Below, one piece after another: positions 7,803-57,026 of a stretch of 64,000 nucleotides of DNA; the first letter of the stretch is position 1; each line of letters starts with the position of its first letter. This DNA is from Tagaea sp. GTDB taxonomy: Bacteria > Pseudomonadota > Alphaproteobacteria > CACIAM-22H2. The stretch is taken from the NCBI GenBank assembly GCA_041917215.1, contig JAYRYC010000005.1:103687-167686 (forward strand). Direction: 5' to 3'. The translations under genes were made by a program, and so were the position numbers. Below the pieces are notes generated by a model. That model did not search any database. It saw nothing but the letters and a program-made list of their open reading frames with translations, and was not told the origin of the DNA.

Positions 7803-9053
7803 TCAGTGGGCCGCCCACTGGATCGATTTGATGTCGATACCTTCTTGCGCCATTTCCCACAGCGGGCTCATCGAGCGCAGCTTGGAAACGGCCTGGACGA
7901 TGCGATCGGCCGCGTAATCGACTTCCGCTTCGGTCGTGAAGCGGCCGAAGCCGATGCGCAGGCTGGTATGCGCGAGTTCTTCCTCGACGCCCAGCGCGCG
8001 CAGCACGTAGCTGGGTTCCAGCGACGCCGATGTGCAGGCCGAGCCCGAGGAAACGCACAAATCCTTGATGCCCATCATCAGCCCCTCGCCTTCCACGTAA
8101 GCGAAGGAGAGGTTGAGATTGCCGGGCAAGCGGTTCGAGAAATCGCCGTTGAGGAACACCTCCGGCAGCTTGTCGTGAACCGTTTTGAGGAAACGATCGC
8201 GCAACGTGGTCAGACGCGCGTTTTCCGAAGCCATTTCCTGGCGCGCGATCTCGGCGGCCTTGCCAAGGCCCACGCAAAGCGGCGTGGGCAACGTGCCCGA
8301 GCGCATGCCGCGCTCCTGCCCGCCGCCATGGATCAAAGCCTGCAAGCGCACGCGCGGCTTGCGGCGCACGAACAACGCGCCGATGCCCTTGGGCCCGTAG
8401 ATCTTGTGGCCGGAGATCGACATAAGATCGATCTTCATCGCCTCGACATCGAGCGGAATTTTGCCGAAGGCCTGCGCGCAATCGGTGTGGAAGAACGCGC
8501 CCTTCTTGCGGCACAGCGCGCCGATCTCGGCCAATGGCTGGATCACGCCGATCTCGTTATTCGCCGCCATGATGGAGACGAGCACGGTCTTGTCGGTGAT
8601 CGCGGCTTCCAGTTCCGCGAGATCGACGAGGCCGTCGGTCTTCACCGGCAGATAGGTGACCGTGAACCCTTCCTGCTCCAGATGGCGGCAGGTATCGAGC
8701 ACGCATTTATGCTCGGTCACCACGGTGACGATGTGGTTCTTCTGGTCCTTATAGAAATGCGCCACGCCCGCGATCGCGAGATTGTTCGATTCCGTGGCGC
8801 CGGAGGTGAACACGATCTCGCGCTCGTCCGCACCGATCAGATCGGCGACCTGCTTGCGCGCGGTTTCGACCGCTTCTTCGGCTTCCCAGCCGTAATGATG
8901 GTTGCGGCTGTGCGGATTGCCGAACTTCTCGATGAAGAACGGCATCATCGCGTCGAGCACGCGCGGATCCATCGGCGTCGTCGCCTGATAATCCAGATAG
9001 ACGGGCTTCGTCGGCGCGTTCGCCAGCCTGTCGTTGGTCGTTTGCGTGCTCAT
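7803..9053 (-). CDS. iscS: Cysteine desulfurase IscS
   Basis: The inner ATG at 9053 gives [33 protein letters not shown].... The protein has the PLP-lysine motif ([12 protein letters not shown]) and the catalytic-Cys loop SSGSACTS. The track ORF extends upstream into GC-rich junk. Confidence 0.9.
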
Positions 9054-9079
9054 AAAATCTCTCGCTCCCGTACCCGAAA

Positions 9080-10171
9080 CTACGCTGCCCGCGCCGCCTG
9101 CCGGCGCCGGGCGAATTCGATATAGGCGGCGGCGAAACCGTCGAGCTGCGCCGCTGTCGTCGCCGGCCCGAACGAGACCCGAATGGCCTCCGCCGCGCCG
9201 TCCCCCGCCCCCATCGCCAGCAACGTGGCGCTGGGGCCGACCTTGCCCGACGAACACGCCGAACCGGCCGACACCGCATACCCGGCAAGGTCGAGCGCCA
9301 TGACCTGGGTATGCGCCGGAACGCCCGGCAGACCGATGCTCAACGTGTTGGGCAGGCGGGGGGCCTTCCTACCGTAGAAGATGGCCCCTATTCCGGCGGA
9401 ATCAACCATGTCGATCACATGGTCTCTCGCCGCATAAAGCTTTGACCAAGCGTCGATTTCGCGCCGCGCCAGCTCGGCCGCCGCACCGAAGGCGACGATC
9501 CCCGGCAGATTGGGGGTGCCGGAGCGCCAGCCGCGCTCCTGCCCGCCGCCCAGCCACAGGGGCGAAACCGCGCGTTTTTCGCGCACGACCAGGGCGCCCA
9601 CACCCATCGGCCCGCCGATTTTATGCGCCGACAGCGCCAGCGTATCGACGTCGAGTGCGGCGAAATCGACCGGGATTTTGCCGGCGGCCTGCACGGCGTC
9701 GCAATGGACGCGCAAGCCCGCCGCATGCGCGCGCGCGGCAAGCTCGGCCACCGGCTGGATCACGCCGGTTTCATTGTTCGCCAGCATCACCGCGACGAGC
9801 TTCACGCCCGCGATGTCGGCGCGGTCCAAATCCAGCACGCCATCCGCCGTGACGGGCAGCACGCGCCCATCGGGCAAATTGGCGCGCACCGCGTCATGCT
9901 CGATCGCCGAATACGCGGCGTCGGCGTCGAAGCCCGACAATGCGAGCGCGTTGGCTTCCGTGCCGCCGCTGGTGAACACCACGCGATCGGCCGGCGCGTT
10001 GACGAGGGCGGCGACTTGTTCGCGCGCCTTCTCGATCAGTGCACGCGCCGCACGACCGGCGTTATGGACAGACGAAGGATTGCCCGCCTCGACCAAAGCA
10101 CGCGCCATCGCCGCCGCCGCTTCCGGGCGGACGGGCACACTCGCGTTCCAGTCGAGATAGGCGGTCGGCAT
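9080..10171 (-). CDS. Second, NifS-like class-V aminotransferase / cysteine desulfurase
   Basis: The protein has a PLP-lysine motif ([12 protein letters not shown]) and an active-Cys loop SAGSACSSG. It is shorter than IscS and lacks the IscS C-terminal tail. It sits between iscR and iscS. Confidence 0.8.
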
Positions 10172-33359: not shown

Positions 33360-34101
33360 AAATGCCCGTCCCTTGAAGCGGGCGGACTATCGCATGCGGC
33401 TTCGCGAGTCGTCCAGAATGGTGGCCGAATCCGCCGCAGCCGGCGTTTCGATTCCAGCCTGCGCCCAAGATGACGGATACAAGCGTTTGGGGGAGTCGCA
33501 TCCCCGTTTCGGGTCCGCCAAAGCCGGATCGCGCGCGACGCGGCACCGCAAATTCCTCGCGTCGCGCGGCCAATGCCGTTTTTCAATGAATTTCAGAATT
33601 ATACATTTTACCCGGTGTAGAATTAGGCACCTGAAATCGTTTGAAAAAATCCGAAATATGACGGTCTTGCAACAGTCGATGCTGCACTGCACACTAAGCC
33701 TCGGACATTTTCGAACCCATCGTTAATGCATTGATTTAGCGATCAAAATAAGCGCTTGACGGTTTTCGCCCTGGATTTTAGCGGTTTCCCGTCGGCAGAC
33801 CCCCTGTATCTAGTTGTCGTATCTACATTTTGTGGTTCTTGCCGTGATCTCGCCAAAATCCTGTTGCGGGTGAATCCGGGGTTTGTTCAACATTTGGTAA
33901 CGAGCTTCGCCATCCACCACGAAATCTAGTGAGCGGTTTTCACCCGCGACATTCGGGATCGGGGGACGAGTCGGCGAAGACGGGGGCTGATTCTGCGCGT
34001 TGTCCGGCAACGGGTCACGCGCAAACGGCTCAAGCAATCAGGCGATGAAGCGGGCCGAGAGAGGCCGCGCACATCGGGATCGAAGACGGCTGGAGGCTAG
34101 G

Positions 34102-37100
34102 ATGCGGATCGAGCGGCGCTTTACGACGGACGGGGCCGATGCTTACGCGAGCATCGCGTTTACGACCACGAACAGCGAGATCAAGAACCCCGACGGCTCC
34201 GTCGTCTTCCAGGCGAAGGACATCGAAGTCCCCGCCGGCTGGTCGCAGGTCGCGTGCGACGTGCTGGCCCAGAAGTATTTCCGCAAGCGCGGCCTGCCCG
34301 CGGCGCTGAAAGCCGTCGAAGAAAACGACGTGCCGTCGTGGCTGTGGCGCAAGAAGCCCGATGATGCGGCGCTGGCGAAGCTTCCCGAGAACGCGCGCAA
34401 TGTCGGCGAGAATTCGGCCAAGCAGGTCTTCGATCGCCTTGCCGGCACGTGGACGTACTGGGGCTGGAAGGGCGGCTATTTCGATTCCGAAGCCGACGCC
34501 CGCGCCTATTTCGACGAGATGCGCTACATGCTGGCGGCGCAGATCGCGGCCCCCAACTCGCCGCAATGGTTCAACACCGGTCTGCACTGGGCCTATGGCA
34601 TCGACGGCCCCGGCCAGGGCCATTTCTACGTCGATTTCCGCACCGGCAAGCTGACGGCGTCGACTTCGGCCTACGAACATCCGCAGCCGCATGCCTGCTT
34701 CATCCAATCCGTCGAAGACGACCTCGTCAACGAGGGCGGCATCATGGATTTGTGGGTGCGCGAAGCGCGCCTGTTCAAATACGGCTCGGGCACGGGCTCC
34801 AACTTCTCGCGCCTGCGCGGCGAAAACGAGAAGCTGTCGGGCGGCGGCAAGTCGTCGGGCCTGATGAGCTTCCTGAAGATCGGCGACCGCGCGGCGGGCG
34901 CCATCAAGTCGGGCGGCACCACGCGCCGCGCCGCCAAGATGGTGACGGTCGATATCGACCATCCGGATATCGAGAAATACATCGACTGGAAGGTCGTCGA
35001 GGAACAGAAGGTCGCGGCCCTCGTCGCGGGCTCGCGCCTCGCCGCCAAGCATCTCAACGAGATCATGGCCGCCTGCGACAAATCGGCGGGCGAAGCCGGC
35101 TACGATCCGAAGAAGAACACGAGCTTGCGCAACGCCATCAAGGGTGCTCGCAAGTCGCTGATCCCCGAGAACTACATCCAGCGCGTCATCCAATTCGCGA
35201 AGCAAGGCTTCGAGAAGATCGACTTCAAATCCTACGACACGGATTGGGATTCGGAGGCGTATCTGACCGTTTCGGGCCAGAACTCCAACAACTCGGTGCG
35301 CGTGACCAACGCGTTCCTCCAGGCCGTGCTCGACAACGGCAAATGGGATCTGATCCGCCGCACCGACGGCAAGGTCCATGACCGCGTCGACGCCAAGGCG
35401 CTGTGGGACAAGATCGGCGAAGCCGCTTGGGCCTCGGCCGATCCGGGCCTGCAATACGACACGACGATCAACGAGTGGCACACCTGCCCGGAATCGGGGC
35501 GCATCAACGCCTCGAACCCGTGCTCGGAATACATGTTCCTCGACGACACGGCGTGCAACCTCGCCTCGGTCAATCTGCTGGCCCTGCGCCGCGAAGACGG
35601 CTCGTTCGACGCGCCCGCGTTCGAGCATGCGTGCCGCCTGTGGACGGTGACGCTCGAAATCTCGGTGCTGATGGCGCAATTCCCGTCCAAGCGCATCGCG
35701 GAACTCTCCTACGAGTACCGTACGCTGGGCCTGGGCTTCGCCAATATCGGCGGCCTGCTGATGGCGATGGGCCTTGGCTACGACAGCGACGAAGGCCGCG
35801 CGATCGCGGGCGCCATCACGGCGATCATGACGGGCGTCAGCTACGCCACGTCGGCCGAAATGGCCGCCGAGCTCGGCGCCTTCCCCGGCTACGAGCCCAA
35901 CCGCGAGCACATGCTGCGCGTCATCCGCAACCATCGCCGCGCGGCGTATGGCGAGGCGTCGGGCTATGAAGGCCTGACGATCCTCCCCGTGCCGCTGCCC
36001 GCGAAGGATTGCCCCGATGCGCGCCTGATCGAAGCCGCCCGCAAGGCGTGGGACGACGCGCTGGAGCTGGGTGTCGCCCACGGCTATCGCAACGCCCAAG
36101 CCACGGTCATCGCGCCCACCGGCACGATCGGCCTGGTGATGGATTGCGACACGACCGGCATCGAACCCGACTTCGCGCTGGTGAAGTTCAAGAAGCTGGC
36201 CGGCGGCGGCTACTTCAAGATCATCAACCGCGTCGTGCCCGTCGGCCTGAAGACGCTGGGCTACACCCAGTCGCAGATCGACGACATCATCGCCTACGCG
36301 GTGGGTCACGGCACGCTGAAGGGCTCCAACGCCGTCAGCCATGGCGCCTTGAAGGCCAAGGGCTTTGGTCAACCGCAGATCGACACGCTGGAAGGCGCTT
36401 TGAAGTCGGCGTTCGACATCAAGTTCGCCTTCAACAAGTGGACGCTGGGCGAGGAGTTCTGCCTCAACACGCTGAAGCTGACCAAGGAACAGCTCGACGA
36501 TCCGGCGTTCGACATGCTGGCCGCGCTGGGCTTCTCGAAGGCCGAAGTCGAAGCCGCGAACACCTGGTGCTCGGGCTCGATGACGCTGGAGGGTGCCCCG
36601 CACCTCAAGGAAGAGCATCTGCCGGTGTTCGACTGCGCCAATCCGTGCGGCCGTAACGGCAAGCGCTATCTGTCGGTCGACAGCCATATCCGCATGATGG
36701 CGGCCTCGCAGCCGTTCATCTCCGGTGCGATCTCCAAGACCATCAACATGCCCAACCAGGCGACGGTCGAGGATTGCAAGGACGCGTATCTGCTGTCGTG
36801 GCGTCTGTGCCTCAAGGCGAACGCGCTCTATCGCGACGGCTCGAAGCTGTCGCAGCCGCTCGCCGCGATCGTGGGCGACGACATCGACCTGAGCGAGGAA
36901 GTCGAGACGATCACGGCGGCCCCGCAGGTCGTGAAGGTCGAGAAGATCGTCGAGCGTATCGTGGAACGCGTGGCGGCCACCGCCCGCGCCCGCCTGCCCA
37001 ACCGCCGCAAGGGTTACACCCAGAAGGCGATGGTCGGCGGCCATAAGGTGTACTTGCGCACCGGCGAATACGAAGACGGCAAGGTCGGCGAGCTGTTCAT

Positions 37101-37851
37101 CGACATGCATAAGGAAGGTGCGGCCTTCCGCAGCTTGATGAACAATTTCGCCATCGCCGTGTCGATCGGCCTGCAATACGGCGTGCCGCTCGAGGAATAC
37201 GTCGAAGCGTTCACCTTCACGCGTTTCGAGCCCAACGGCATCGTCCAGGGCAACGACGCGATCAAGAACGCGACGTCGATCCTCGACTACATCTTCCGCG
37301 AACTCGCCGTGTCGTATCTCGGCCGCGACGACCTCGCCCATGTGGTGCAGGACGATCTCGAGCCGGATTCGATGGGCAAGGGCGAGAAGGACTCGACCCT
37401 GCCGGGTGCGGGTTCCGCCGCGGCGGCCGCAGCACTCGACGCGGTGAAGAAGGTCGCGTCGACCGGCTTCGTGCGCTCGCGCTTCAAGGTGCTGCCGGGT
37501 GGCGCGCCCGCTTCGGCGTCGGCCGTGGCGCTGGCGGGCGACGTGGATCTGCTCGAGCCGGAAGTCGAGGACGACGTCGAAGTCGGCCTCGCCGAAACGG
37601 CGGAAGCGCCGGCCCAGGTCGAAGGCGACAAGCAGCCGATCGGCTTCGCGATCGAAGCGGTCGCCGCGGCGATCGGCACGGCGATGGATGCCGGTCAGCC
37701 CAAGGCCGCGTCGAAGGCCGACAAGATCCGCGAAGCGCGCATGAAGGGCTACACGGGCGATCCGTGCGAGACCTGCGGCTCGATGGCGATGGTGCGCAAC
37801 GGCACGTGCACCAAGTGCATCGATTGCGGCTCGACCAGCGGCTGCTCGTAA
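34102..37851 (+). CDS. nrdJ: Class II (adenosylcobalamin-dependent) ribonucleotide reductase, long monomeric NrdJ
   Basis: A GGAGG sits 6 nt upstream of the ATG at 34102. The protein starts [62 protein letters not shown], the canonical NrdJ N-terminus. It has the radical-Cys loop NPCSEY, is 1249 aa, and ends in a Cys-rich tail ([28 protein letters not shown]). The track's longer ORF adds 34 spurious N-terminal codons. Confidence 0.95.
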
Positions 37852-37877
37852 GCCGTACGCGATACCGCGAAACACGA

Positions 37878-37910
37878 AAAGGGCCGGGAGAAATCCCGGC
37901 CCTTTTTCAT
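37878..37910 (+). terminator. Rho-independent terminator after nrdJ
   Basis: The stem-loop is GGGCCGGGA-gaaa-TCCCGGCCC followed by TTTTTC, 27 nt after the nrdJ stop. Confidence 0.75.
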
Positions 37911-38113
37911 TGAACACTGTGCGCCGACCGAATGCGCAACCTATGGATCTATGGTGTGCCGCGTAACAAAACGGTCCGGCGCGCCTTGCAAAATGCGAAG
38001 GCGGCGCAATCGAGAACGCGTCCACGATTATTCCACATGGGCACTGGCGGTGTTTCGCGTATAACTCCGATCCCGCAAATTTTACCGAATCTGATGGCAT
38101 TGCGCCGCCGCCG

Positions 38114-39241
38114 ATGACCGACGACCAAGAAGACAAAACCCGCCGTCCCGGCGCCGACGTCGAGAAGTACGATTTGCGGCCGTTGCGCGAGATGCTGCGC
38201 TTGGCCGCCGACGGCGTCGAAGGCCTGTTGATGCACAACGTGCCGGGCCGCGAGAGCACGATCGATCGCGAAATCTTCGACGACATCGCGCGCGCGAAAT
38301 GCTTCCGCTTCAAGGAAGCGACGGGCGCCTTCGCCGACGCGCCGATCCGCTTCGACGCGACGCGCGGCCGGCTCGACGTCGTCACCAAGCTCGACGCGCG
38401 GGACGCCGACAGCGAAATCCAGATCGTGCGTTCGGGCAGCGACGCGATGCTGATGAAGGATACGGATCCGGGATCCGCCTATAACCGCCGCTTGGTCGAA
38501 ATCGTCTCGCAGGTGCTGGGCTTGGGCATCGTCGACGAGGTCGTGTTCGGCCAGACTTTGCCGGAGGCTTCGCTCCTCTATCTGCGCCCGCTGCCCGATC
38601 CCGAGGAAAGCTGCGAACAATTCATCGACCAGATCGTCGGCGCGATCGCGCGCCACAAGCCGCAACCGATCCGCAACAAACAGGCCTTCAACGAGGCCTA
38701 TGCGGGGCTGGTGATGCGGCTCGCGCGCTCGGGCATTCCGCCATCGCGCATGAACCCGATCGACATGCAGCAGACGATCCAGCAGGAAATGCTGCGCGGC
38801 ATGATGAAGGTCGAAATCTGGCGCAAGCTTTGGCGCTGGACGACCGAATGCGAAACGAAGCTTCAGCCGGTGAAGGCGATTCCGGCGGTGCAGTCGGACA
38901 AGGCCTCGTCCCAGCAGATCGCCGATCTCGAAAAGGCGATCAAACGCGCCGCCAAGACGATCGGCGTCCACGTCACCAACGCGAGCCTGCTCTACGAGCG
39001 CGCGGTCGGCGGCGAGAATTTCTACGTCGAGGCGATGCCCGCCATCCTCTATATCCGCGAGGCGCGCCAGACGGTGGAAGAGCTCTACACCATCGCCAAC
39101 GAGTGGTCGGTGCTGTGGACGGCCGTTCCGAAGAACGCCGCGTTGAACGACGTGAAAATGCTGCTGAAGCCCCTGCTCGTTTCGATCAAGGACGTTTTGT
39201 CCCGCCCCCAACCGCGCGAAGCCGTTTTGGGCACAAAATAG
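38114..39241 (+). CDS. Conserved hypothetical protein, tandem paralogue A (375 aa, no recognisable domain)
   Basis: This is a clean ORF with host-like GC3 codon usage and no signal peptide or TM segment. It shares long identical blocks with the next gene: LREMLRLAA-GVEGLLM, CFRFKE-TGAFADAPIRFDA-RGRLDVV, NRRLVE-VSQVLGLGIVDEVVFGQ-LPEASLLYLRPLP-PEESCE-FI, KPQPIRNKQAFNEAYA, NPIDMQ-T-QQEMLRGM-KVEIWRKLWRW, NFYVEAMPAILYIREAR and KDVLSRP. Confidence 0.7.
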   Translation: MTDDQEDKTRRPGADVEKYDLRPLREMLRLAADGVEGLLMHNVPGRESTIDREIFDDIARAKCFRFKEATGAFADAPIRFDATRGRLDVVTKLDARDADSEIQIVRSGSDAMLMKDTDPGSAYNRRLVEIVSQVLGLGIVDEVVFGQTLPEASLLYLRPLPDPEESCEQFIDQIVGAIARHKPQPIRNKQAFNEAYAGLVMRLARSGIPPSRMNPIDMQQTIQQEMLRGMMKVEIWRKLWRWTTECETKLQPVKAIPAVQSDKASSQQIADLEKAIKRAAKTIGVHVTNASLLYERAVGGENFYVEAMPAILYIREARQTVEELYTIANEWSVLWTAVPKNAALNDVKMLLKPLLVSIKDVLSRPQPREAVLGTK

Positions 39242-39315
39242 CCCGCGTCAAAATAATAACCGTAAAATTTTCGGATTAGCTTGCTGGGTGGAACACCCCT
39301 TGCTACCTAATCCCC

Positions 39316-40449
39316 ATGGCGATCCAGGGTAACGATCCGCGCCGGCCGGGCGAGGATATCGACAAATACGACGATCGCGGCTTGCGCGAGATGCTGCGCT
39401 TGGCCGCCGAGGGCGTCGAAGGCCTGTTGATGCGCCACGTGCCCGGCAAGGAAAGCGATATCGACCGCGAGATTTTCGAGGATATCGGGCGCAGCGGCTG
39501 CTTCCGTTTCAAGGAATCGACCGGCGCCTTCGCCGACGCGCCGATCCGCTTCGACGCCGAGCGCGGCCGTCTGGACGTGGTGATGAACCTGAACCAGACC
39601 GGCCAGGAGACGGGCATCCAATTCGTGCGCTCGGGCTCCGACGCGTCGCTGATGCGCGATTACGATCCGGGCTCCGACTACAACCGCCGCCTCGTCGAGC
39701 TCGTCTCGCAGGTGCTGGGCCTGGGCATCGTCGACGAAGTCGTGTTCGGCCAGAAGCTGCCCGAGGCCTCGCTCCTCTATCTGCGTCCGCTGCCCCAGCC
39801 CGAGGAGAGCTGCGAGCGCTTCATCAACGACATCGTCACCGCGATCGGCAACTACAAGCCCCAGCCGATCCGCAACAAGCAGGCCTTCAACGAAGCCTAT
39901 GCGCGCCTCGTGCAGCGCCTGGCCAAATCGGGCGTGCCGCCGTCGCGCCTCAACCCCATCGACATGCAGCACACGCTGCAGCAGGAAATGCTGCGCGGCA
40001 TGGTGAAGGTGGAGATCTGGCGCAAGCTCTGGCGCTGGGTGATCGATTGCGCGGTGAAGGTGCAGGACCTGCGGCCCATTCCGGCGATCCTGTCGGATAA
40101 GCCGCTCTCGGCCCAAGTGCGCGACCTGGAAGACGCGTTGAAGCGCGCGGGCAAGATCATCGGCACGCATGTCTACAACGCCAGCATGCTCTACGACCGC
40201 GCGGTGAAGGGCATCAATTTCTACGTCGAGGCGATGCCCGCGATCCTTTACATCCGCGAAGCGCGGCCGGTGGTCGAGGAGATCTACGTCAAGGTCAACG
40301 GCTGGTCGGCCGCCTGGACGCATATGCCCAAGACAGCGTCGATCGGCGAAGCGACCAATCTTCTGGCCCCCACGATGGCGGGCGTGAAGGACGTGCTGTC
40401 GCGCCCCGCCCCGCGCGCGATCGGGGCCCCAGCCGGCGCGAAAAACTAG
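39316..40449 (+). CDS. Conserved hypothetical protein, tandem paralogue B (377 aa)
   Basis: It is collinear with paralogue A along its whole length, with roughly two-thirds or more identity by eye. A 74-nt spacer separates the two genes. Both upstream regions carry an AAATTTT-then-CCGAAT/CGGATT motif about 45-55 nt before the ATG. Confidence 0.7.
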   Translation: MAIQGNDPRRPGEDIDKYDDRGLREMLRLAAEGVEGLLMRHVPGKESDIDREIFEDIGRSGCFRFKESTGAFADAPIRFDAERGRLDVVMNLNQTGQETGIQFVRSGSDASLMRDYDPGSDYNRRLVELVSQVLGLGIVDEVVFGQKLPEASLLYLRPLPQPEESCERFINDIVTAIGNYKPQPIRNKQAFNEAYARLVQRLAKSGVPPSRLNPIDMQHTLQQEMLRGMVKVEIWRKLWRWVIDCAVKVQDLRPIPAILSDKPLSAQVRDLEDALKRAGKIIGTHVYNASMLYDRAVKGINFYVEAMPAILYIREARPVVEEIYVKVNGWSAAWTHMPKTASIGEATNLLAPTMAGVKDVLSRPAPRAIGAPAGAKN

Positions 40450-41072
40450 CGGATCATTCCGAAACGGCGCAGCGTGGCGAGCAGCGTTTCGCCCGCGACC
40501 GGCACGACGCGGATATCGGCGGGCGGCTCGAAAAGGCTCGCGTCGAAGCGTCCTGGCGTTACATCCTCGAAATTCCAATCGAGGCGGCCGGGCTGACCGC
40601 CGACCGTGCCGGTCCCTTCCAGGCGCCACAACACGCCGCGCCGGTCGACCAGCGCCGTCGCGTCGAGCGCGACATCCGAAGCGTCGCGCTGCACGCGCAA
40701 TTGCGACGCGGGCACGCCGTCGACCGACGTGCTGCGGATCGCCGATTCCCGGAAGCCGCGCCCGCGCAAAATCGCGGGCGGCAAGCCCAGCCCTGTCAAA
40801 TCGGTTTCGAACGCCATGCGCAACGCCGGCGCCATCAGCCACGCTTTGTCGCGGTCGAGCCTGGCGATCACCACATGCTCGATCCCGTCGGTCGCGTGAT
40901 AGCGGATCGCGTCGCGCGTGCGATGAATGCGCGCCGAACGTTTGGCGTCGCGCCCGAACCAGCCGATGGCGGTGTAGTCGATTTGCGGCGCGAAGATCGA
41001 CGGCCGCGCTTGGCCGTACGCGGGGGCCGCCAGCAAAGCCAGCCCCGCCAAAGCGCCGCGGCGCGAAATCAA
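40446..41072 (-). CDS. Secreted hypothetical protein (about 208 aa), TTG start 3 nt after the Sel1 gene stop
   Basis: The signal peptide is MISRRGALAGLALLAAPAYGQA if the TTG at 41072 is used. The longer track ORF upstream is Arg-rich junk that would run through the Sel1 gene. Its 3' end overlaps the convergent paralogue B stop by 4 nt. Confidence 0.5.
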   Translation of the reverse strand: MISRRGALAGLALLAAPAYGQARPSIFAPQIDYTAIGWFGRDAKRSARIHRTRDAIRYHATDGIEHVVIARLDRDKAWLMAPALRMAFETDLTGLGLPPAILRGRGFRESAIRSTSVDGVPASQLRVQRDASDVALDATALVDRRGVLWRLEGTGTVGGQPGRLDWNFEDVTPGRFDASLFEPPADIRVVPVAGETLLATLRRFGMIR

Positions 41073-41074
41073 GC

Positions 41075-41983
41075 TCAGGAGCCCCGCTCCGGATCGAGGC
41101 CGGCGGCGCGCCGATAAAGCTTCGCCGCCTCGGCCGGATCGCGCGCCACGCCGCGCCCGGTTTCGTACATGCCCGCGAGATTGTTCATGGCGCCGCGATC
41201 GCCCAAGCGCACCGCGCGGCGGAAGAAATCGACCGCGCGCCCATCGTCGCGCGCGACCAATCGTCCGTCGCGATACCAGCGGCCCATATTGTTGAGCGCG
41301 GAGGCGTTGTTGAGCGCCGCCGCGCGCTCGTACAGCGCGAAGGCCGCCGGATCGTTGCGATCGATGCCGCGCCCGGCGGCGAACAGCGAGGCGAGGTTGT
41401 TCATCGCGGCGGCGTTGTTCTGCGCGGCCGAGCGGCGATACCAATCGACGGCGGTCTTAGCGTCCTGCGGGCCGCCTTCGCCGATATCGTTCATCACGCC
41501 GTACATGAATTGCGCGCGCGGATCGCCAAGCTCCGCGCCGCGCAAACTCCATTCGCGCGCCGAGGCGAGATCGCGCGACACGCCGCGCCCGTTGTAATGC
41601 GCTTGCGCCAGAAAAAACGCGGCCGAGGGCAAGCGCGCGGACCAGGCGCGCTCGAACATCTTGACGGCCGAGGCTTCGTCCTTCGGCACGCCCGCGTCGC
41701 CGTTGGCGGCGAGCAAACCCATCTCGACATAGGCGACCGGCTCGCCCTTGCCCATCGCCTGGACCAGCAGCTTGCGCATCTCGGCCAGATCCTGCGCCAC
41801 GCCGTCGCCGCGCCGATGCATCATGGCGAGGCGCACCAGCGCCAAACCTTCGGGCGTCGAGCGCAGATTTTGTTCTTGGGCGGCGGTTTGCGGACGGGGG
41901 GCATCGCCGGAATTGGCGACGCAAGCCCCGAGGGCCAACGCCAGTCCGGCCGCGACGCCAAAGCGGAAAAGTTTCGAGCGCAT
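41075..41983 (-). CDS. Sel1-repeat (TPR-like) lipoprotein
   Basis: The lipobox is MRSKLFRFGVAAGLALALGACV. There are multiple Sel1 repeats (A-A--NNLA--Y--GRGV-RD---A---Y-RAA). Confidence 0.8.
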   Translation of the reverse strand: MRSKLFRFGVAAGLALALGACVANSGDAPRPQTAAQEQNLRSTPEGLALVRLAMMHRRGDGVAQDLAEMRKLLVQAMGKGEPVAYVEMGLLAANGDAGVPKDEASAVKMFERAWSARLPSAAFFLAQAHYNGRGVSRDLASAREWSLRGAELGDPRAQFMYGVMNDIGEGGPQDAKTAVDWYRRSAAQNNAAAMNNLASLFAAGRGIDRNDPAAFALYERAAALNNASALNNMGRWYRDGRLVARDDGRAVDFFRRAVRLGDRGAMNNLAGMYETGRGVARDPAEAAKLYRRAAGLDPERGS

Positions 41984-42089: not shown

Positions 42090-42557
42090 ATGACCGGCAC
42101 GATCGACGCTCGCCTCAAACAACTCGGCATCGAATTGCCGCCCGGCTCCGCCCCGGCGGCGAATTACGTGCCCTTCGTCGTGACCGGCAAGCTCGTGTTC
42201 ATCGCCGGCCAGATTTCACAGAAGGACGGCAAGCCGGAGTTTTTGGGCAAGCTCGGCCGCGAGTTCGGCGTGGCGGAAGGCCAGCAGGCCGCGCGCCTAT
42301 GCGCGCTCAGCATCCTGTCGCATCTCAAGACGGCCGCCGGCGGCGATCTCGACAAGGTCGTGCGCTGCGTGCGCCTGGGCGGCTTCGTCAACGCGACACC
42401 CGAATTCACCGACCATCCCGCCGTGATCAACGGGGCGTCGGACATGATCGTCGAAATCTTCGGCGACAAGGGCAAACATGCGCGCGCCGCCGTGGGCACG
42501 TCGTCGCTGCCGCGCGGCGTGGCGGTCGAGATCGACGCGATCTTCGAACTCGCGTGA
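42090..42557 (+). CDS. RidA/YjgF/UK114-family protein, paralogue 1
   Basis: The 155-aa protein has the YjgF-like fold sequence and ends in the conserved R..VEIDAIFEL region. Confidence 0.75.
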   Translation: MTGTIDARLKQLGIELPPGSAPAANYVPFVVTGKLVFIAGQISQKDGKPEFLGKLGREFGVAEGQQAARLCALSILSHLKTAAGGDLDKVVRCVRLGGFVNATPEFTDHPAVINGASDMIVEIFGDKGKHARAAVGTSSLPRGVAVEIDAIFELA

Positions 42558-42994
42558 CTTTGGGCGAACGCGTCGCGAAGGCCGGGCTGGTTCTGCCGCC
42601 CGCCTTCGCGCCGGTCGCAAGCTATGCCGGTATCGTGCGGGCGGGCGCGCAACTCCATGTCTCCGGCATGGGCCCCACACAGGGCAAGGCGATCGTCGAA
42701 AGCGGCAAGATCGCGGACGGCCGCGATCTCGACAAGGCGCAGCGCGCCGCGCATCTGACCGCGCTGAACCTGCTGGCGCAGATCGACGCGAATATGCGCG
42801 TGATGCCGGTCAAAATTTTCGCGCTGGTGAACGCGGGCCCCGAATTCACGGCGCTGGACGAGGCGATCGAAACCGCCCGCAAGCTTTTCGCCGATCTGTT
42901 CGGCCATCCGGGGGCGTGGACGATCGTCGGCGCCCCCGCCCTGCCATTCGCCATCACGACCGAGATGGAAGCGATTTTCGCCCTGGAAGATTAG
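42554..42994 (+). CDS. RidA/YjgF-family protein, paralogue 2 (GTG start overlapping upstream stop)
   Basis: It is translated from the GTG at 42554 (GTGA overlap with the upstream stop): VTLGERVAKAGLVLPP...TEMEAIFALED. It is collinear with paralogue 1. The track hides it in the tail of a spurious 494-aa ORF. Confidence 0.65.
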   Translation: MTLGERVAKAGLVLPPAFAPVASYAGIVRAGAQLHVSGMGPTQGKAIVESGKIADGRDLDKAQRAAHLTALNLLAQIDANMRVMPVKIFALVNAGPEFTALDEAIETARKLFADLFGHPGAWTIVGAPALPFAITTEMEAIFALED

Positions 42995-52389: not shown

Positions 52390-52464
<75 letters not shown>

Positions 52465-55137: not shown

Positions 55138-55154
55138 CGCGCACTAATTGTCGA

Positions 55155-55418
55155 TCATCGTTTTTTGGACTTGTCGTTTTCTGGCGAGTCATCGCCGGCT
55201 CGCCAACCTCTGATTTTTACGTGAGGCTTTTTAAGCAAGCCGCTCTGCGTAGCTTTCTTACTTACGACAGCCTTCTTCTTCGCAGCTGCCTTCTTCTTGC
55301 GCTGCTTCATTAGACCCTTCGTGTACAGGTGAGCATATGGATCATCTGACACAAAACCCATTTTGGGATTTCCAAACTCTTTGGAATGACCACCTAAATA
55401 GTATCCTTTCTTACTCAT
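55155..55418 (-). CDS. Small lysine-rich hypothetical protein encoded in an AT-rich islet
   Basis: The protein is MSKKGYYLGGHSKEFGNPKMGFVSDDPYAHLYTKGLMKQRKKKAAAKKKAVVSKKATQSGLLKKPHVKIRGWRAGDDSPENDKSKKR. Its 5' half and promoter region have far lower GC than the surrounding DNA. Confidence 0.4.
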   Translation of the reverse strand: MSKKGYYLGGHSKEFGNPKMGFVSDDPYAHLYTKGLMKQRKKKAAAKKKAVVSKKATQSGLLKKPHVKIRGWRAGDDSPENDKSKKR

Positions 55419-55616
55419 TGATTGCCCCCCATGATCATCATAATTGTATTGAACAAAAATATTGTCACTTGGAATTTATAAAAAAATTTTAGATTATTAT
55501 ACAAAATCCACCGAAATTTATTCAGGCCATTAGAAATACTGAGATTTTCTTGACGGGGCCCCCGCCCCCGGCCAAGTTCTGCCGCCATTGAGCGTAAGAC
55601 GGCGGGGGCTTCGGGC

Positions 55617-57026
55617 ATGTCGATTCGGGTATTTGCGTTGGCGGCGATCGGGGCCGTTTTGCCGGGGACCGTGTTCGCGGCCGATTTGAATGGTGCGGCG
55701 CTCGCTTGGCCGTGGGCCATTCCATTCTGCGGCCTGCTGCTGTCGATCGCCATTCTGCCGCTGGCGGCGCCGTCGCTTTGGCATCACCACTACGGCAAAA
55801 TCGCGCTGGCCTGGGCGCTGGCGATCATCCTGCCCTTCGTCGCCTCGTTCGGGTTCGGCACCGCCTTCGCCGCGATCTGGCACACGATGGCGGCCGAATA
55901 CATCCCCTTCCTGATTTTGCTCGGCTCACTGTTCACAATCGCGGGCGGCGTCTACGTGAAGGGCAATCTGCACGGCAGCCCGAAGACAAACACGGCCCTG
56001 CTGGCCGTGGGCACGGGCATCGCCAGCGTCACCGGGACCACGGGCGCCGCGATGCTGCTGATCCGCCCCGTCTTGCGCGCCAACGACGAGCGCCGTCATA
56101 ACGCGCATGTCGTGATCTTCTTCATCTTTCTGGTCGCGAATATCGGCGGCAGCTTGACGCCGCTGGGCGATCCGCCGCTGTTCCTCGGCTTCCTGAAGGG
56201 CGTCGGCTTCTTCTGGCCGACGGTCCATCTGTTCCTGCCGATGCTGACGGTGACCGTAATCCTGCTCGTCGCGTTCTACGCGCTCGATAGCTGGTTCTAT
56301 CATCGCGACGAAAGCTTCAAGGCGAAATACGATCCCACGCCGGACGCGCCGCTGTCGATCGAAGGCAAGGTCAATATCCTGCTGCTCGGCGGCGTCGTCG
56401 CCGCCGTGCTGATGTCGGGCCTGTGGAAGCCCGGCATCTCGTGGAACATCGCGGGCACGGTCATCGAGTTGCAGGGTGTCGCGCGCGACGTGATCCTGCT
56501 GGCGCTCGCATGGCTGTCGCTCAAAATCACGCCGCCGGGCTGCCGCGAGGCGAACGCGTTCTCCTGGGGCCCCATCCAGGAAGTGGCGAAACTGTTCTTC
56601 GGCATCTTCGTCACCATCGTGCCGGTGATCGCGATGCTGAAGGCCGGCAAGGACGGCGCTTTCGCGGGCGTCGTCGCCGCGGTGACGAATCCCGACGGCT
56701 CGCCCAATGCGGCGATGTATTTCTGGCTGACCGGCATTCTGTCGAGCTTCCTCGACAACGCGCCCACCTATCTCGTGTTCTTCAACACGGCGGGCGGCGA
56801 TCCCGCGACGCTGATGGGCCCGCTCGCCACCACGCTCGCCGCGATTTCGGCGGGCGCGGTGTTCATGGGGGCCAACACCTATATCGGCAACGCGCCGAAC
56901 TTCATGGTCAAGGCGGTGGCGGAGGAGAACGGCGTGAAGATGCCGAGCTTCTTCGGCTACATGCTGTGGTCGATCGCGTTCCTGATCCCGTGCTTCATTC
57001 TGGTCGACGTGATCTTCTTCCTATGA
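55617..57026 (+). CDS. NhaD/ArsB-superfamily ion transporter (Na+/H+ antiporter NhaD-like)
   Basis: The 469-aa polytopic membrane protein has duplicated halves with the GNIGGSLTPLGDPP and GNAPNF motifs typical of this permease family. Confidence 0.7.
   Translation: MSIRVFALAAIGAVLPGTVFAADLNGAALAWPWAIPFCGLLLSIAILPLAAPSLWHHHYGKIALAWALAIILPFVASFGFGTAFAAIWHTMAAEYIPFLILLGSLFTIAGGVYVKGNLHGSPKTNTALLAVGTGIASVTGTTGAAMLLIRPVLRANDERRHNAHVVIFFIFLVANIGGSLTPLGDPPLFLGFLKGVGFFWPTVHLFLPMLTVTVILLVAFYALDSWFYHRDESFKAKYDPTPDAPLSIEGKVNILLLGGVVAAVLMSGLWKPGISWNIAGTVIELQGVARDVILLALAWLSLKITPPGCREANAFSWGPIQEVAKLFFGIFVTIVPVIAMLKAGKDGAFAGVVAAVTNPDGSPNAAMYFWLTGILSSFLDNAPTYLVFFNTAGGDPATLMGPLATTLAAISAGAVFMGANTYIGNAPNFMVKAVAEENGVKMPSFFGYMLWSIAFLIPCFILVDVIFFL

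What the first reader, a model, noticed from the sequence alone, without database searches (positions are those of the whole stretch)
38114..40449. Tandem pair of about 375-aa paralogous proteins with no recognisable domain, directly downstream of nrdJ
The two adjacent genes encode collinear proteins that share long perfectly conserved blocks (for example CFRFKE-TGAFADAPIRFDA-RGRLDVV, LGLGIVDEVVFGQ-LPEASLLYLRPLP-PEESCE, KPQPIRNKQAFNEAY, EMLRGM-KVEIWRKLWRW and NFYVEAMPAILYIREAR). Elsewhere they differ at many positions, so this looks like an old duplication under purifying selection. I could not match either protein to any family I know. They have no nucleotide-binding loops, metal-ligand clusters, TM segments or signal peptides, so they are cytoplasmic. 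They sit after a strong nrdJ terminator. Each has its own upstream region with a shared AAATTTT-CCGAAT/CGGATT-like element about 50 nt before the ATG, so they are probably separately transcribed. A duplicated, well-conserved, unannotatable protein next to a B12-dependent ribonucleotide reductase is the best candidate here for an undescribed function.
Basis: seen in the sequence. Interest (0 to 1): 0.8.

Follow-up and report, generated by a model that had tools for sequence, protein, structure and literature searches.

The report
Duplicated orphan protein genes beside nrdJ
Two neighbouring genes encode 71%-identical copies of a real, conserved protein found almost only in the bacterial genus Tagaea, matching no known family or fold; one copy is an optional extra, and nothing ties the pair functionally to the ribonucleotide reductase gene beside it.

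Summary
ORFs 38114-39241 (A, 375 aa) and 39316-40449 (B, 377 aa) are real + strand genes, 71% identical with no gaps. They have no hit in Pfam, NCBIfam, PHROGs, PADLOC or PDB sequences. Two AlphaFold models match only generic helical bundles.

The family is tiny: about 30 clusters among 5.8 billion proteins, 11 representatives among 1.84 billion, and 18 of 185,579 species. Nearly all are Tagaea-like Rhodospirillales.

B is the core gene and is present in every relative. A comes from one tandem duplication inside one Tagaea subclade. It survives in three lineages (window, L044, L024), evolves faster (dN/dS 0.30 against 0.19), and has been deleted at least twice in the closest relatives.

The nrdJ adjacency is genus-level synteny, not an operon. 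A strong terminator lies between them, toxin-antitoxin and other cargo genes insert there in relatives, and distant members are not near nrdJ.

The best functional lead is that in the other Tagaea clades the single copy overlaps (ATGA) an upstream Asp/Glu/hydantoin-racemase-family gene. A distant member also heads a cluster of aminotransferase, DAO-type oxidoreductase and Amdase-like genes. I infer, weakly, a soluble protein that binds or processes a carboxylate or amino-acid ligand.

This is a genuine but ordinary lineage-specific orphan of moderate interest.

The parts
34000..37851 (+). Context only: nrdJ-type class II ribonucleotide reductase. The listed ORF starts at 34000, but homology with relatives begins at about 34120.
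   Evidence: ORF. One search gives the Pfam families of the L024 ortholog: Ribonuc_red_2_N, Ribonuc_red_lgC, TSCPD. Orthologs are 80-97% identical in all Tagaea loci.
37876..37910 (+). Intrinsic terminator of nrdJ: GGGCCGGGA-GAAA-TCCCGGCCC, extended by A-U pairs, then a U-tract.
   Evidence: dG -26.5 kcal/mol, z = -6.94, 0 of 200 shuffles fold as well. Conserved after nrdJ in all clades.
37911..38113 (+). Upstream region of A. The proximal ~85 nt (about 38029-38113) is conserved with the A ortholog of L024. It contains AAATTTTACCGAAT at 38077-38090. There is no Shine-Dalgarno-like sequence before the ATG.
   Evidence: Alignment of the window and L024 upstream regions. No stable structure: z = +0.29.
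38114..39241 (+). Gene A (375 aa): the accessory, faster-evolving paralog.
   Evidence: A-type orthologs occur only in P0001 (99%), P0002/L044 (93%) and P0003/L024 (79%). dN/dS 0.30. Absent from L001, L002, L004 and L028-L032.
39242..39315 (+). A-B spacer, which is the ancestral upstream region of B. AAAATTTTCGGATT lies at 39264-39277. The most conserved block, GGATTAGCTTGCTGGGTGGAACACCCCTTGCTACCTAA, lies at 39273-39310. There is no terminator and no Shine-Dalgarno sequence. A possible -35/-10 pair, TTGCTG-N17-TACCTA, ends 6 nt before the ATG, which would give a leaderless mRNA (inference only).
   Evidence: The same sequence follows the nrdJ terminator directly in single-copy relatives. Fold z = -1.48 with no U-tract.
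39316..40449 (+). Gene B (377 aa): the core copy, orthologous to the single gene of all relatives.
   Evidence: 94.8-98.6% identical to the single copy in L001, L002, L004, L028-L032 and L034. dN/dS 0.035-0.19. AlphaFold model mcae1ea9a125c: pLDDT 75.1, pTM 0.74.
40446..41117 (-). Context only: a convergent 223-aa protein with no Pfam or NCBIfam hit and a signal-peptide-like N-terminus. Its 3' end overlaps that of B by 4 nt. It is the conserved downstream neighbour in the Tagaea loci that reach that far.

Best explanation
A and B are tandem paralogs of a lineage-restricted orphan protein family that is nearly confined to Tagaea-like Rhodospirillales.

Shown:
- The protein is soluble and has two parts: an alpha/beta N-terminal domain (about residues 48-160) and a C-terminal bundle of four long helices (about 217-362).
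- The residues invariant from 24% to 100% identity include a polar set (R201, T220, E224, R227, W235, R240, N288, B numbering). All but R201 lie on the long helices.
- B is the ancestral, always-retained gene.
- A arose by one tandem duplication in the common ancestor of the window, L044 and L024 lineages. It evolves about 1.6 times faster at non-synonymous sites and has been deleted at least twice among the closest relatives.
- The position after nrdJ is inherited synteny across a strong terminator and an insertion hotspot. It is not an operon.

Inferred:
- In the other Tagaea clades the single copy is the second gene of a two-gene unit, translationally coupled through an ATGA overlap to an Asp/Glu/hydantoin-racemase-family (PF01177) enzyme gene.
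- A 27%-identical member in another alphaproteobacterium heads a same-strand cluster of aminotransferase, DAO-type FAD oxidoreductase and Amdase/racemase-superfamily genes.
- From this I propose that the protein binds, or acts on, a carboxylate-bearing small molecule (an amino acid or dicarboxylate), using the arginine-rich pocket in the helical bundle.
- It would originally have worked alongside the racemase-family enzyme. In the window's clade it would work without one encoded at this locus.
- A would then be a dispensable, diverging second isoform, or possibly a hetero-oligomer partner of B.
For: Gene reality and paralogy.

Narrow distribution: 21 and then 29 clusters among 5.8e9 proteins. 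11 representatives among 1.84e9. 18 of 185,579 species. No relatives on plasmids, phages or viral contigs.

B core, A accessory.

Congruent A and B trees, with A-minus genomes nested inside.

Coupling to the racemase-family gene: an ATGA overlap (GTGA in L010) in 12 of 14 loci. The partner scores 53.4 bits against PF01177, whose cut-off is 31. It is present in L006, L008-L018, L035 and L036.

L022 cluster: gene order and Pfam families; Amdase 83 bits; no + strand terminator after the family gene.

Invariant polar residues. Helix positions.
Against: - The function is not demonstrated by anything here.
- The window's own clade has no racemase-family gene at this locus, yet B stays under strong purifying selection. 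So the protein does not strictly need that partner.
- The racemase family is very large (more than 8,000 clusters) and has several copies per genome. Its reappearance three genes downstream in L022 could be coincidence.
- Other distant members sit in unrelated contexts: beside histidine kinases (L019, L003), beside PPK2 (L037), and in a run of 12 genes almost all without annotation (P0025).
- The N-terminal domain is modelled only at moderate confidence. I could not inspect the 3D positions of the invariant residues, so the 'pocket' is inferred from helix periodicity alone.
Confidence: 0.35

Rival explanations
1. The proteins are accessory factors of the B12-dependent ribonucleotide reductase NrdJ, for example a cofactor chaperone, a reactivase or a regulator.
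For: The family gene lies downstream of nrdJ in essentially all Tagaea-like genomes examined. In the distant Tagaea clades only about 35-40 nt separate the nrdJ terminator from the start of the racemase-family gene that precedes the family gene. That leaves little room for a separate promoter, so terminator read-through is conceivable.
Against: A strong terminator lies between them (dG -26.5, z -6.9). The gap accepts unrelated inserts in relatives: TacA/GNAT, HigBA on the opposite strand, a SIR2-like gene and a 354-aa gene. All members outside the genus, and the second copy in L003/L033, lie away from nrdJ. nrdJ is very widespread, whereas this family occurs in 18 of 185,579 species. The proteins have no ATPase or nucleotide-binding motif and no zinc ribbon or ATP-cone.
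Confidence: 0.05
2. The protein is a cytoplasmic signalling accessory: a ligand sensor or adaptor built on a four-helix bundle that works with histidine kinases.
For: In L019-L021 the distant member lies 130 nt upstream of a hybrid histidine kinase (dCache/PAS/HATPase/receiver) on the same strand. In L003 the translocated copy is divergent from a HAMP histidine kinase. Long four-helix bundles are common sensor and adaptor modules (established knowledge).
Against: There is no kinase neighbour at the conserved Tagaea locus. L019-L021 are one and the same sequence, so they count as one observation. Histidine kinases are abundant in these genomes. There is no match to 4HB_MCP, HAMP, PAS or any signalling Pfam model, even at E up to 10.
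Confidence: 0.12
3. The protein is part of, or a relic of, a defence or toxin-antitoxin type system, because it borders an insertion hotspot for such genes and has a helical bundle like those of membrane-disrupting effectors.
Confidence: 0.05
4. It is a lineage-specific structural, scaffold or stress protein with no small-molecule ligand, and the racemase-family adjacency is incidental.
For: The window's clade keeps and even duplicates the gene with no racemase-family gene at the locus. No catalytic motif is recognisable. The fold hits are only generic bundles.
Against: The ATGA overlap with the racemase-family gene is kept across two Tagaea clades whose family proteins are only about 60% identical. 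That is unusual for an incidental neighbour. About 105 columns are invariant down to 50% identity, including many buried polar residues. That fits a specific binding or catalytic site better than a scaffold.
Confidence: 0.3

Closest known systems
Generic long four-helix bundles (e.g. designed bundle 7unj_B, designed repeat protein 7udm_A, acyl-CoA dehydrogenase C-terminal domains 6u1v_A and 6ksa_A, Borrelia outer-surface proteins 5izt_B and 2yn7_B)
   Different: Sequence identity is 3-14%. Only half of the protein is covered and the N-terminal alpha/beta domain is unmatched. Foldseek is not significant (E at least 0.2, TM at most 0.29). The best-ranked hits are mostly de novo designs, so the similarity is architectural and does not indicate homology.
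Gene partners of Asp/Glu/hydantoin-racemase-family (PF01177) enzymes, such as the class-III aminotransferase coupled to the 215-aa paralog in Tagaea
   Same: In most Tagaea clades the family gene occupies the position of a translationally coupled partner of a PF01177 gene. The paralogous racemase-family gene is likewise coupled to an aminotransferase.
   Different: The orphan protein is not an aminotransferase or any recognisable enzyme. In the window the racemase-family gene is absent from the locus.
Known ribonucleotide reductase accessory proteins (NrdR, NrdI, NrdH; established knowledge of the nrd operons)
   Same: Only the position next to an RNR gene.
   Different: There is no zinc ribbon or ATP-cone (NrdR), no flavodoxin fold (NrdI) and no glutaredoxin-like CxxC (NrdH). 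The gene is separated from nrdJ by a terminator. None of those accessory proteins is associated with class II enzymes in this way.
Ordinary tandem gene duplicates with presence/absence polymorphism
   Same: The copies are collinear, on the same strand and adjacent. The A and B trees are congruent. One copy is relaxed and repeatedly lost.
   Different: Nothing unusual. This part of the finding is standard genome evolution.

Membership tests
Any curated protein family (Pfam-A, NCBIfam, PHROGs, PADLOC) | A profile match at or above the family's curated threshold | tested here: not met
   The best Pfam hit is FAD_oxidored at E 0.15, 11.8 bits against a cut-off of 27. The best NCBIfam hit is 15.1 bits against 238. 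PHROGs gives none. PADLOC gives E 0.073. No family recurs consistently across 18 diverse members at E up to 10.
Any solved structure or known fold | A significant sequence or structural match covering both domains | tested here: not met
Tandem paralog pair from a single gene duplication | Collinear full-length homology, adjacency on the same strand, and gene trees in which each copy forms its own clade congruent with the other | tested here: met
   71% identity over 364 residues with no gaps. The A clade is sister to the B clade and both show the order L024, (L044, window).
nrdJ operon member / RNR accessory protein | Co-transcription with the RNR gene | tested here: not met
   An intrinsic terminator with dG -26.5 kcal/mol and z -6.9 lies between nrdJ and A. 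Unrelated genes, some on the opposite strand, are inserted there in relatives. Transcription itself cannot be tested with these tools.
nrdJ operon member / RNR accessory protein | Linkage to RNR genes conserved across taxa | tested here: not met
   Linked only within Tagaea-like genomes. L003/L033, L019, L022, L026, L037 and the P0025 contig have no nrdJ nearby.
nrdJ operon member / RNR accessory protein | Domains of the known accessory proteins (NrdR zinc ribbon plus ATP-cone, NrdI flavodoxin, NrdH CxxC) | tested here: not met
   No Pfam hit. No CxxC or nucleotide-binding motif.
Two-gene unit with a PF01177 Asp/Glu/hydantoin-racemase-family enzyme | A racemase-family gene immediately upstream with an overlapping stop/start | tested here: not met
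   Not met in the window or its clade: there is no racemase-family hit in the window, L001, L002, L004, L024 or L028-L032. It is met in the other Tagaea clades, with an ATGA (GTGA in L010) overlap in 12 of 14 loci. So it is an ancestral or sister-clade feature, not a feature of this locus.
Toxin-antitoxin or anti-phage defence system | A match to known defence or TA models, or carriage on mobile elements | tested here: not met
   PADLOC gives no hit below E 0.07. There are no relatives in 72,556 plasmids, 50,697 phages or IMG/VR. Codon composition is typical of the host.

The most novel reading that the evidence does not exclude
The family founds a previously undescribed two-domain fold: an alpha/beta domain plus a long helical bundle carrying an invariant pocket of Arg, Glu, Thr, Asn and Trp. 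It would be a new kind of binding protein or enzyme for an amino acid or dicarboxylate, which originally worked as the coupled partner of a racemase-superfamily enzyme. In the window's lineage the two isoforms A and B would have diverged in specificity or would assemble as a heteromer.
Probability: 0.2. Interest if true: 0.55.

Novelty: categorically new. Interest (0 to 1): 0.35.

Why it matters
If the proteins prove to have a defined biochemical role, they would add a new family, and probably a new N-terminal fold, to the enzymology around Asp/Glu/hydantoin-racemase-type enzymes. That is a large superfamily whose many small paralogs are mostly uncharacterised and are often misnamed "arylsulfatase" in public records.

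The locus is also a clean natural experiment in gene duplication. One copy is fixed and strongly constrained. The other is relaxed, polymorphic and repeatedly lost among strains whose B proteins are 95-98% identical.

The nrdJ terminator region is shown to be a recurrent landing site for toxin-antitoxin and defence-type cargo in this genus.

"Categorically new" here means only that the family cannot be placed in any known one. No new mechanism has been demonstrated. Lineage-restricted orphans of this kind are common in bacterial genomes, so the practical importance is modest until a function is found.

Tried and rejected
- **Sequence profiles:** Pfam, NCBIfam, PHROGs, PADLOC and PDB sequences, for single proteins, for family profiles, for 18 diverse members at E up to 10, and for the N-domain alone. 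Nothing was found.
- **Mobile-element origin:** no plasmid, phage or IMG/VR relatives, and host-like GC3. Rejected.
- **RNA elements:** the Rfam gathering scan of the whole window found only a tRNA at 52390-52461 and no B12 riboswitch near nrdJ. The upstream regions of A and B have no significant structure.
- **Pentapeptide-repeat neighbours:** these looked like a link for P0022 and P0025, but L037, which resembles P0022, has none. Dropped.
- **The 106-aa upstream ORF:** the one in L019-L021 has no counterpart elsewhere, and the 106-aa ORF upstream in L003 is unrelated to it.
- **The 'CACAAAATAG' junction:** I first read the homology in A-minus genomes that starts at this sequence as a deletion scar of A. 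The block AAATAGCCCGCGTC is kept in all B upstream regions, including after unrelated inserts. So it is part of B's own upstream region, and A's stop codon merely falls inside it. I withdrew the scar argument. The loss of A rests on the tree.
- **My own errors:** my first scans of the racemase-family partner used a wrong frame and were repeated correctly. One dN/dS script timed out and was redone.
- **Literature:** a search for 'Tagaea' returned only taxonomy and community surveys, with nothing on this family.
Full report
**1. The observation**

They align end to end with no gaps at 71% identity (258 of 364 residues). All of the quoted identical blocks are present at collinear positions, with runs of up to 17 identical residues.

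The + strand frames are the coding ones. GC3 is 0.86 and 0.90 against GC2 of 0.40-0.41, as in the neighbouring genes, and orthologs evolve with dN/dS well below 1. The long antisense ORFs are high-GC artefacts.

There is no P-loop, Rossmann motif, CxxC or His cluster. The N-termini are charged. The single hydrophobic peak (Kyte-Doolittle 1.73) contains acidic residues and is modelled as a buried helix followed by a strand.

The nrdJ terminator is strong: dG -26.5 kcal/mol, z = -6.9.

**2. A true orphan family**

Neither protein matches Pfam, NCBIfam, PHROGs, PADLOC or any PDB sequence.

A word-indexed search of 5.8 billion protein clusters found 21 relatives, all 353-393 aa and all unannotated. 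A profile search raised this to 29. An exhaustive HMMER pass over 1.84 billion representatives found 11. Among one genome per species for 185,579 species, 18 carry the family. Almost all are MAGs labelled Tagaea sp. or placed near it in Rhodospirillales.

There are no relatives in 72,556 plasmids, 50,697 phage records or IMG/VR. No Pfam family recurs even weakly across 18 diverse members. Profiles of the whole protein and of the N-terminal half find nothing in the PDB.

**3. Structure**

AlphaFold2 with the family alignment gave a mediocre model of A (pLDDT 67.9). A more diverse alignment gave a better model of B (pLDDT 75.1, pTM 0.74).

The protein has an alpha/beta N-terminal part (helices 48-60, 109-115 and 121-135; strands 77-80, 85-91 and 102-107), then linker helices, then four long helices (217-252, 262-298, 302-330, 343-362) modelled at pLDDT 80-94.

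Across members down to 24% identity the invariant residues include R201, T220, E224, R227, W235, R240 and N288. T220, E224 and R227 are spaced i, i+4, i+7 on one long helix. W235 and R240 lie on the same helix, and N288 on the next. I read this as a polar, arginine-rich site in the bundle. That is an inference from helix periodicity, because the model coordinates could not be inspected.

**4. History of the pair**

Every one of the 18 representative species has a single copy at this locus. In the window's closest relatives that copy is B. L001 is 98.6% identical to B, and its flanking genes are 92-99% identical to those of the window.

A-type genes exist only in the window, in P0001 (99%), in P0002/L044 (93%) and in P0003/L024 (79%). 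Wherever enough flanking sequence is available, A is followed by a B-type gene.

In the trees the A clade is sister to the B clade, and both show the same branching order: L024 first, then L044, then the window. The A-minus genomes (L028/L029, and L001, L002, L030-L032) nest inside the B clade. The simplest reading is one tandem duplication, vertical inheritance of the pair, and at least two later deletions of A. Recombinational exchange of the A cassette between strains cannot be excluded.

The dS between A and B (0.58-0.62) is only a little larger than between window and L024 orthologs (0.42-0.48). dN/dS is 0.30 for A orthologs and 0.19 for B orthologs, falling to 0.035-0.15 among close B genes.

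So both copies are functional. B is the constrained core gene, and A is a relaxed, dispensable copy. A is never seen as a pseudogene.

**5. The nrdJ neighbourhood**

The family gene lies downstream of nrdJ in the Tagaea-like genomes, but the evidence speaks against a functional unit.

- A strong terminator follows nrdJ in all clades.
- The short stretch around it is an insertion hotspot. It is empty in L001, L002, L004, L028, L029 and L032. It holds A in the window. It holds a low-GC 354-aa gene plus A in L024, a TacA antitoxin plus a GNAT toxin in L030, a low-GC SIR2_2-like gene in L031, HigB/HigA in L005, L007 and L011, and a further low-GC insert in L017.
- Members outside the genus, and a second copy in one MAG (L003/L033, next to tRNA-Pro, a HAMP histidine kinase and flagellar genes), are not near nrdJ.

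One point remains in favour of a weak link. In the distant Tagaea clades only about 35-40 nt separate the terminator from the next start codon, so read-through cannot be ruled out.

**6. The functional lead**

In the two other Tagaea clades a 219-aa gene lies between the nrdJ terminator and the family gene. Its stop overlaps the family gene's start as ATGA (GTGA in L010) in 12 of 14 loci. It is also present in L035 and L036.

It is an Asp/Glu/hydantoin-racemase-family protein: PF01177 at 53.4 bits against a cut-off of 31, with a hydantoin racemase as the nearest PDB sequence. It belongs to a very large subfamily of more than 8,000 clusters, often misnamed "arylsulfatase". A 215-aa paralog elsewhere in Tagaea genomes is similarly coupled to a class-III aminotransferase.

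Independently, a 27%-identical family member in another alphaproteobacterial MAG heads a same-strand cluster of aminotransferase, DAO-type FAD oxidoreductase and Amdase/racemase-superfamily genes, with no terminator after the family gene.

These two observations suggest a role in amino-acid or dicarboxylate chemistry, and the arginine-rich invariant site would suit a carboxylate ligand.

Against this:
- The window's clade has no racemase-family gene at the locus but keeps B under strong constraint.
- Other distant contexts differ: a hybrid histidine kinase in L019, PPK2 in L037, and a run of 12 genes almost all without annotation around P0025.
- The racemase superfamily is common enough for the L022 co-occurrence to be chance.

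I therefore hold the mechanism at low confidence.

**7. Upstream elements**

AAATTTT occurs four times in the 64 kb window, and two of those are upstream of A (38077) and B (39265). Upstream of A it lies within an ~85-nt block conserved with L024. Upstream of B it lies within an ~80-nt block that is nearly invariant in the close clade and that follows the nrdJ terminator directly in single-copy genomes.

It is missing upstream of L024B, L027 and the distant clades.

Neither gene has a Shine-Dalgarno sequence. For B, a TTGCTG-N17-TACCTA pair ending 6 nt before the ATG would fit a leaderless transcript. That is speculation.

The A-B spacer has no terminator. B probably has its own promoter, and A-B co-transcription remains possible.

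**8. Verdict**

The pair is not a conserved system. It is a core orphan gene plus an accessory paralog. The nrdJ association is synteny across a terminator and an insertion hotspot.

The family lies outside every described family and solved fold that could be tested, so it is unclassifiable rather than a variant of something known. It is also a narrowly distributed hypothetical protein of a kind that is common in bacterial genomes, and no mechanism is established. Interest is moderate to low (0.35).

Noticed in passing
Relatives: L030 9062-9909; L031 8139-9992; L024 8435-9499; L005 about 8975-9570; L011 and L007 (same type); L017 6586-8151. The equivalent site in the window is 37852-38113.: The few dozen bases around the nrdJ terminator are a recurrent insertion site in Tagaea genomes. 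The cargo includes a TacA antitoxin plus a GNAT toxin, HigB/HigA, a low-GC SIR2_2-like gene (24.2 bits against a cut-off of 24.5), a low-GC 354-aa gene with no family, and a low-GC 215-aa gene. In L024 and L031 the insert lies between the nrdJ stop and a copy of the terminator.
   Followed up: partly
P0029 (578 aa): The last 76 residues are almost identical to the C-terminus of family member P0011. The first ~500 residues are unrelated and have no Pfam hit. This could be a mobile-element insertion into the family gene, or an assembly chimera.
   Followed up: no
L003 3133-4245 and L033 1928-3043; tRNA-Pro at L003 4546-4622 (- strand): MAG JAIXXA01 carries two family genes on different contigs. 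One is nrdJ-linked (L014). The other lies next to tRNA-Pro, a HAMP histidine kinase and the flgF/G/A/H genes, and is closer to the A/B clade (66-69%) than to its own genome's nrdJ-linked copy (55%). This is either a translocated or transferred copy, or mixed binning.
   Followed up: partly
P0025 contig (JGI 3300059473; no DNA obtained): A 33%-identical member sits in a tight same-strand run of 12 genes. Nearly all have no Pfam hit. Its start overlaps the end of a 512-aa unknown gene, and a pentapeptide-repeat protein lies three genes downstream. P0022 (L025) also has a pentapeptide-repeat neighbour. L037, which resembles P0022, does not.
   Followed up: partly
window 40446-41117 (- strand): A second orphan: a 223-aa protein with a signal-peptide-like N-terminus and no Pfam or NCBIfam hit. 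It is convergent with B, overlaps it by 4 nt, and is its constant neighbour in the Tagaea loci that extend past the family gene.
   Followed up: no
window 42090-42557 and 42557-42985 (+ strand): A tandem pair of RidA/YjgF-family genes, about 31% identical, abutting each other. The pair is conserved in relatives (L002, L024, L027, L028).
   Followed up: no
window 33400-34120: There is a long, lower-GC (0.586) region upstream of nrdJ. No cobalamin riboswitch or any other Rfam family reaches its gathering score there. The listed nrdJ ORF starts at 34000, but homology with relatives begins at about 34120.
   Followed up: no
window 55150-55620: The lowest-GC kilobase of the window (0.553). It holds two of the five AAATTT sites in the window and a small lysine-rich ORF (55155-55418, - strand), upstream of a 469-aa multi-pass membrane protein (55617-57026).
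   Followed up: no
P0040, P0054, P0065, P0079, P0085 and P0136: Members of the PF01177 racemase-family subgroup are named 'arylsulfatase' in NCBI records although they hit only the Asp/Glu/hydantoin racemase model. This is probably a propagated misannotation.
   Followed up: no
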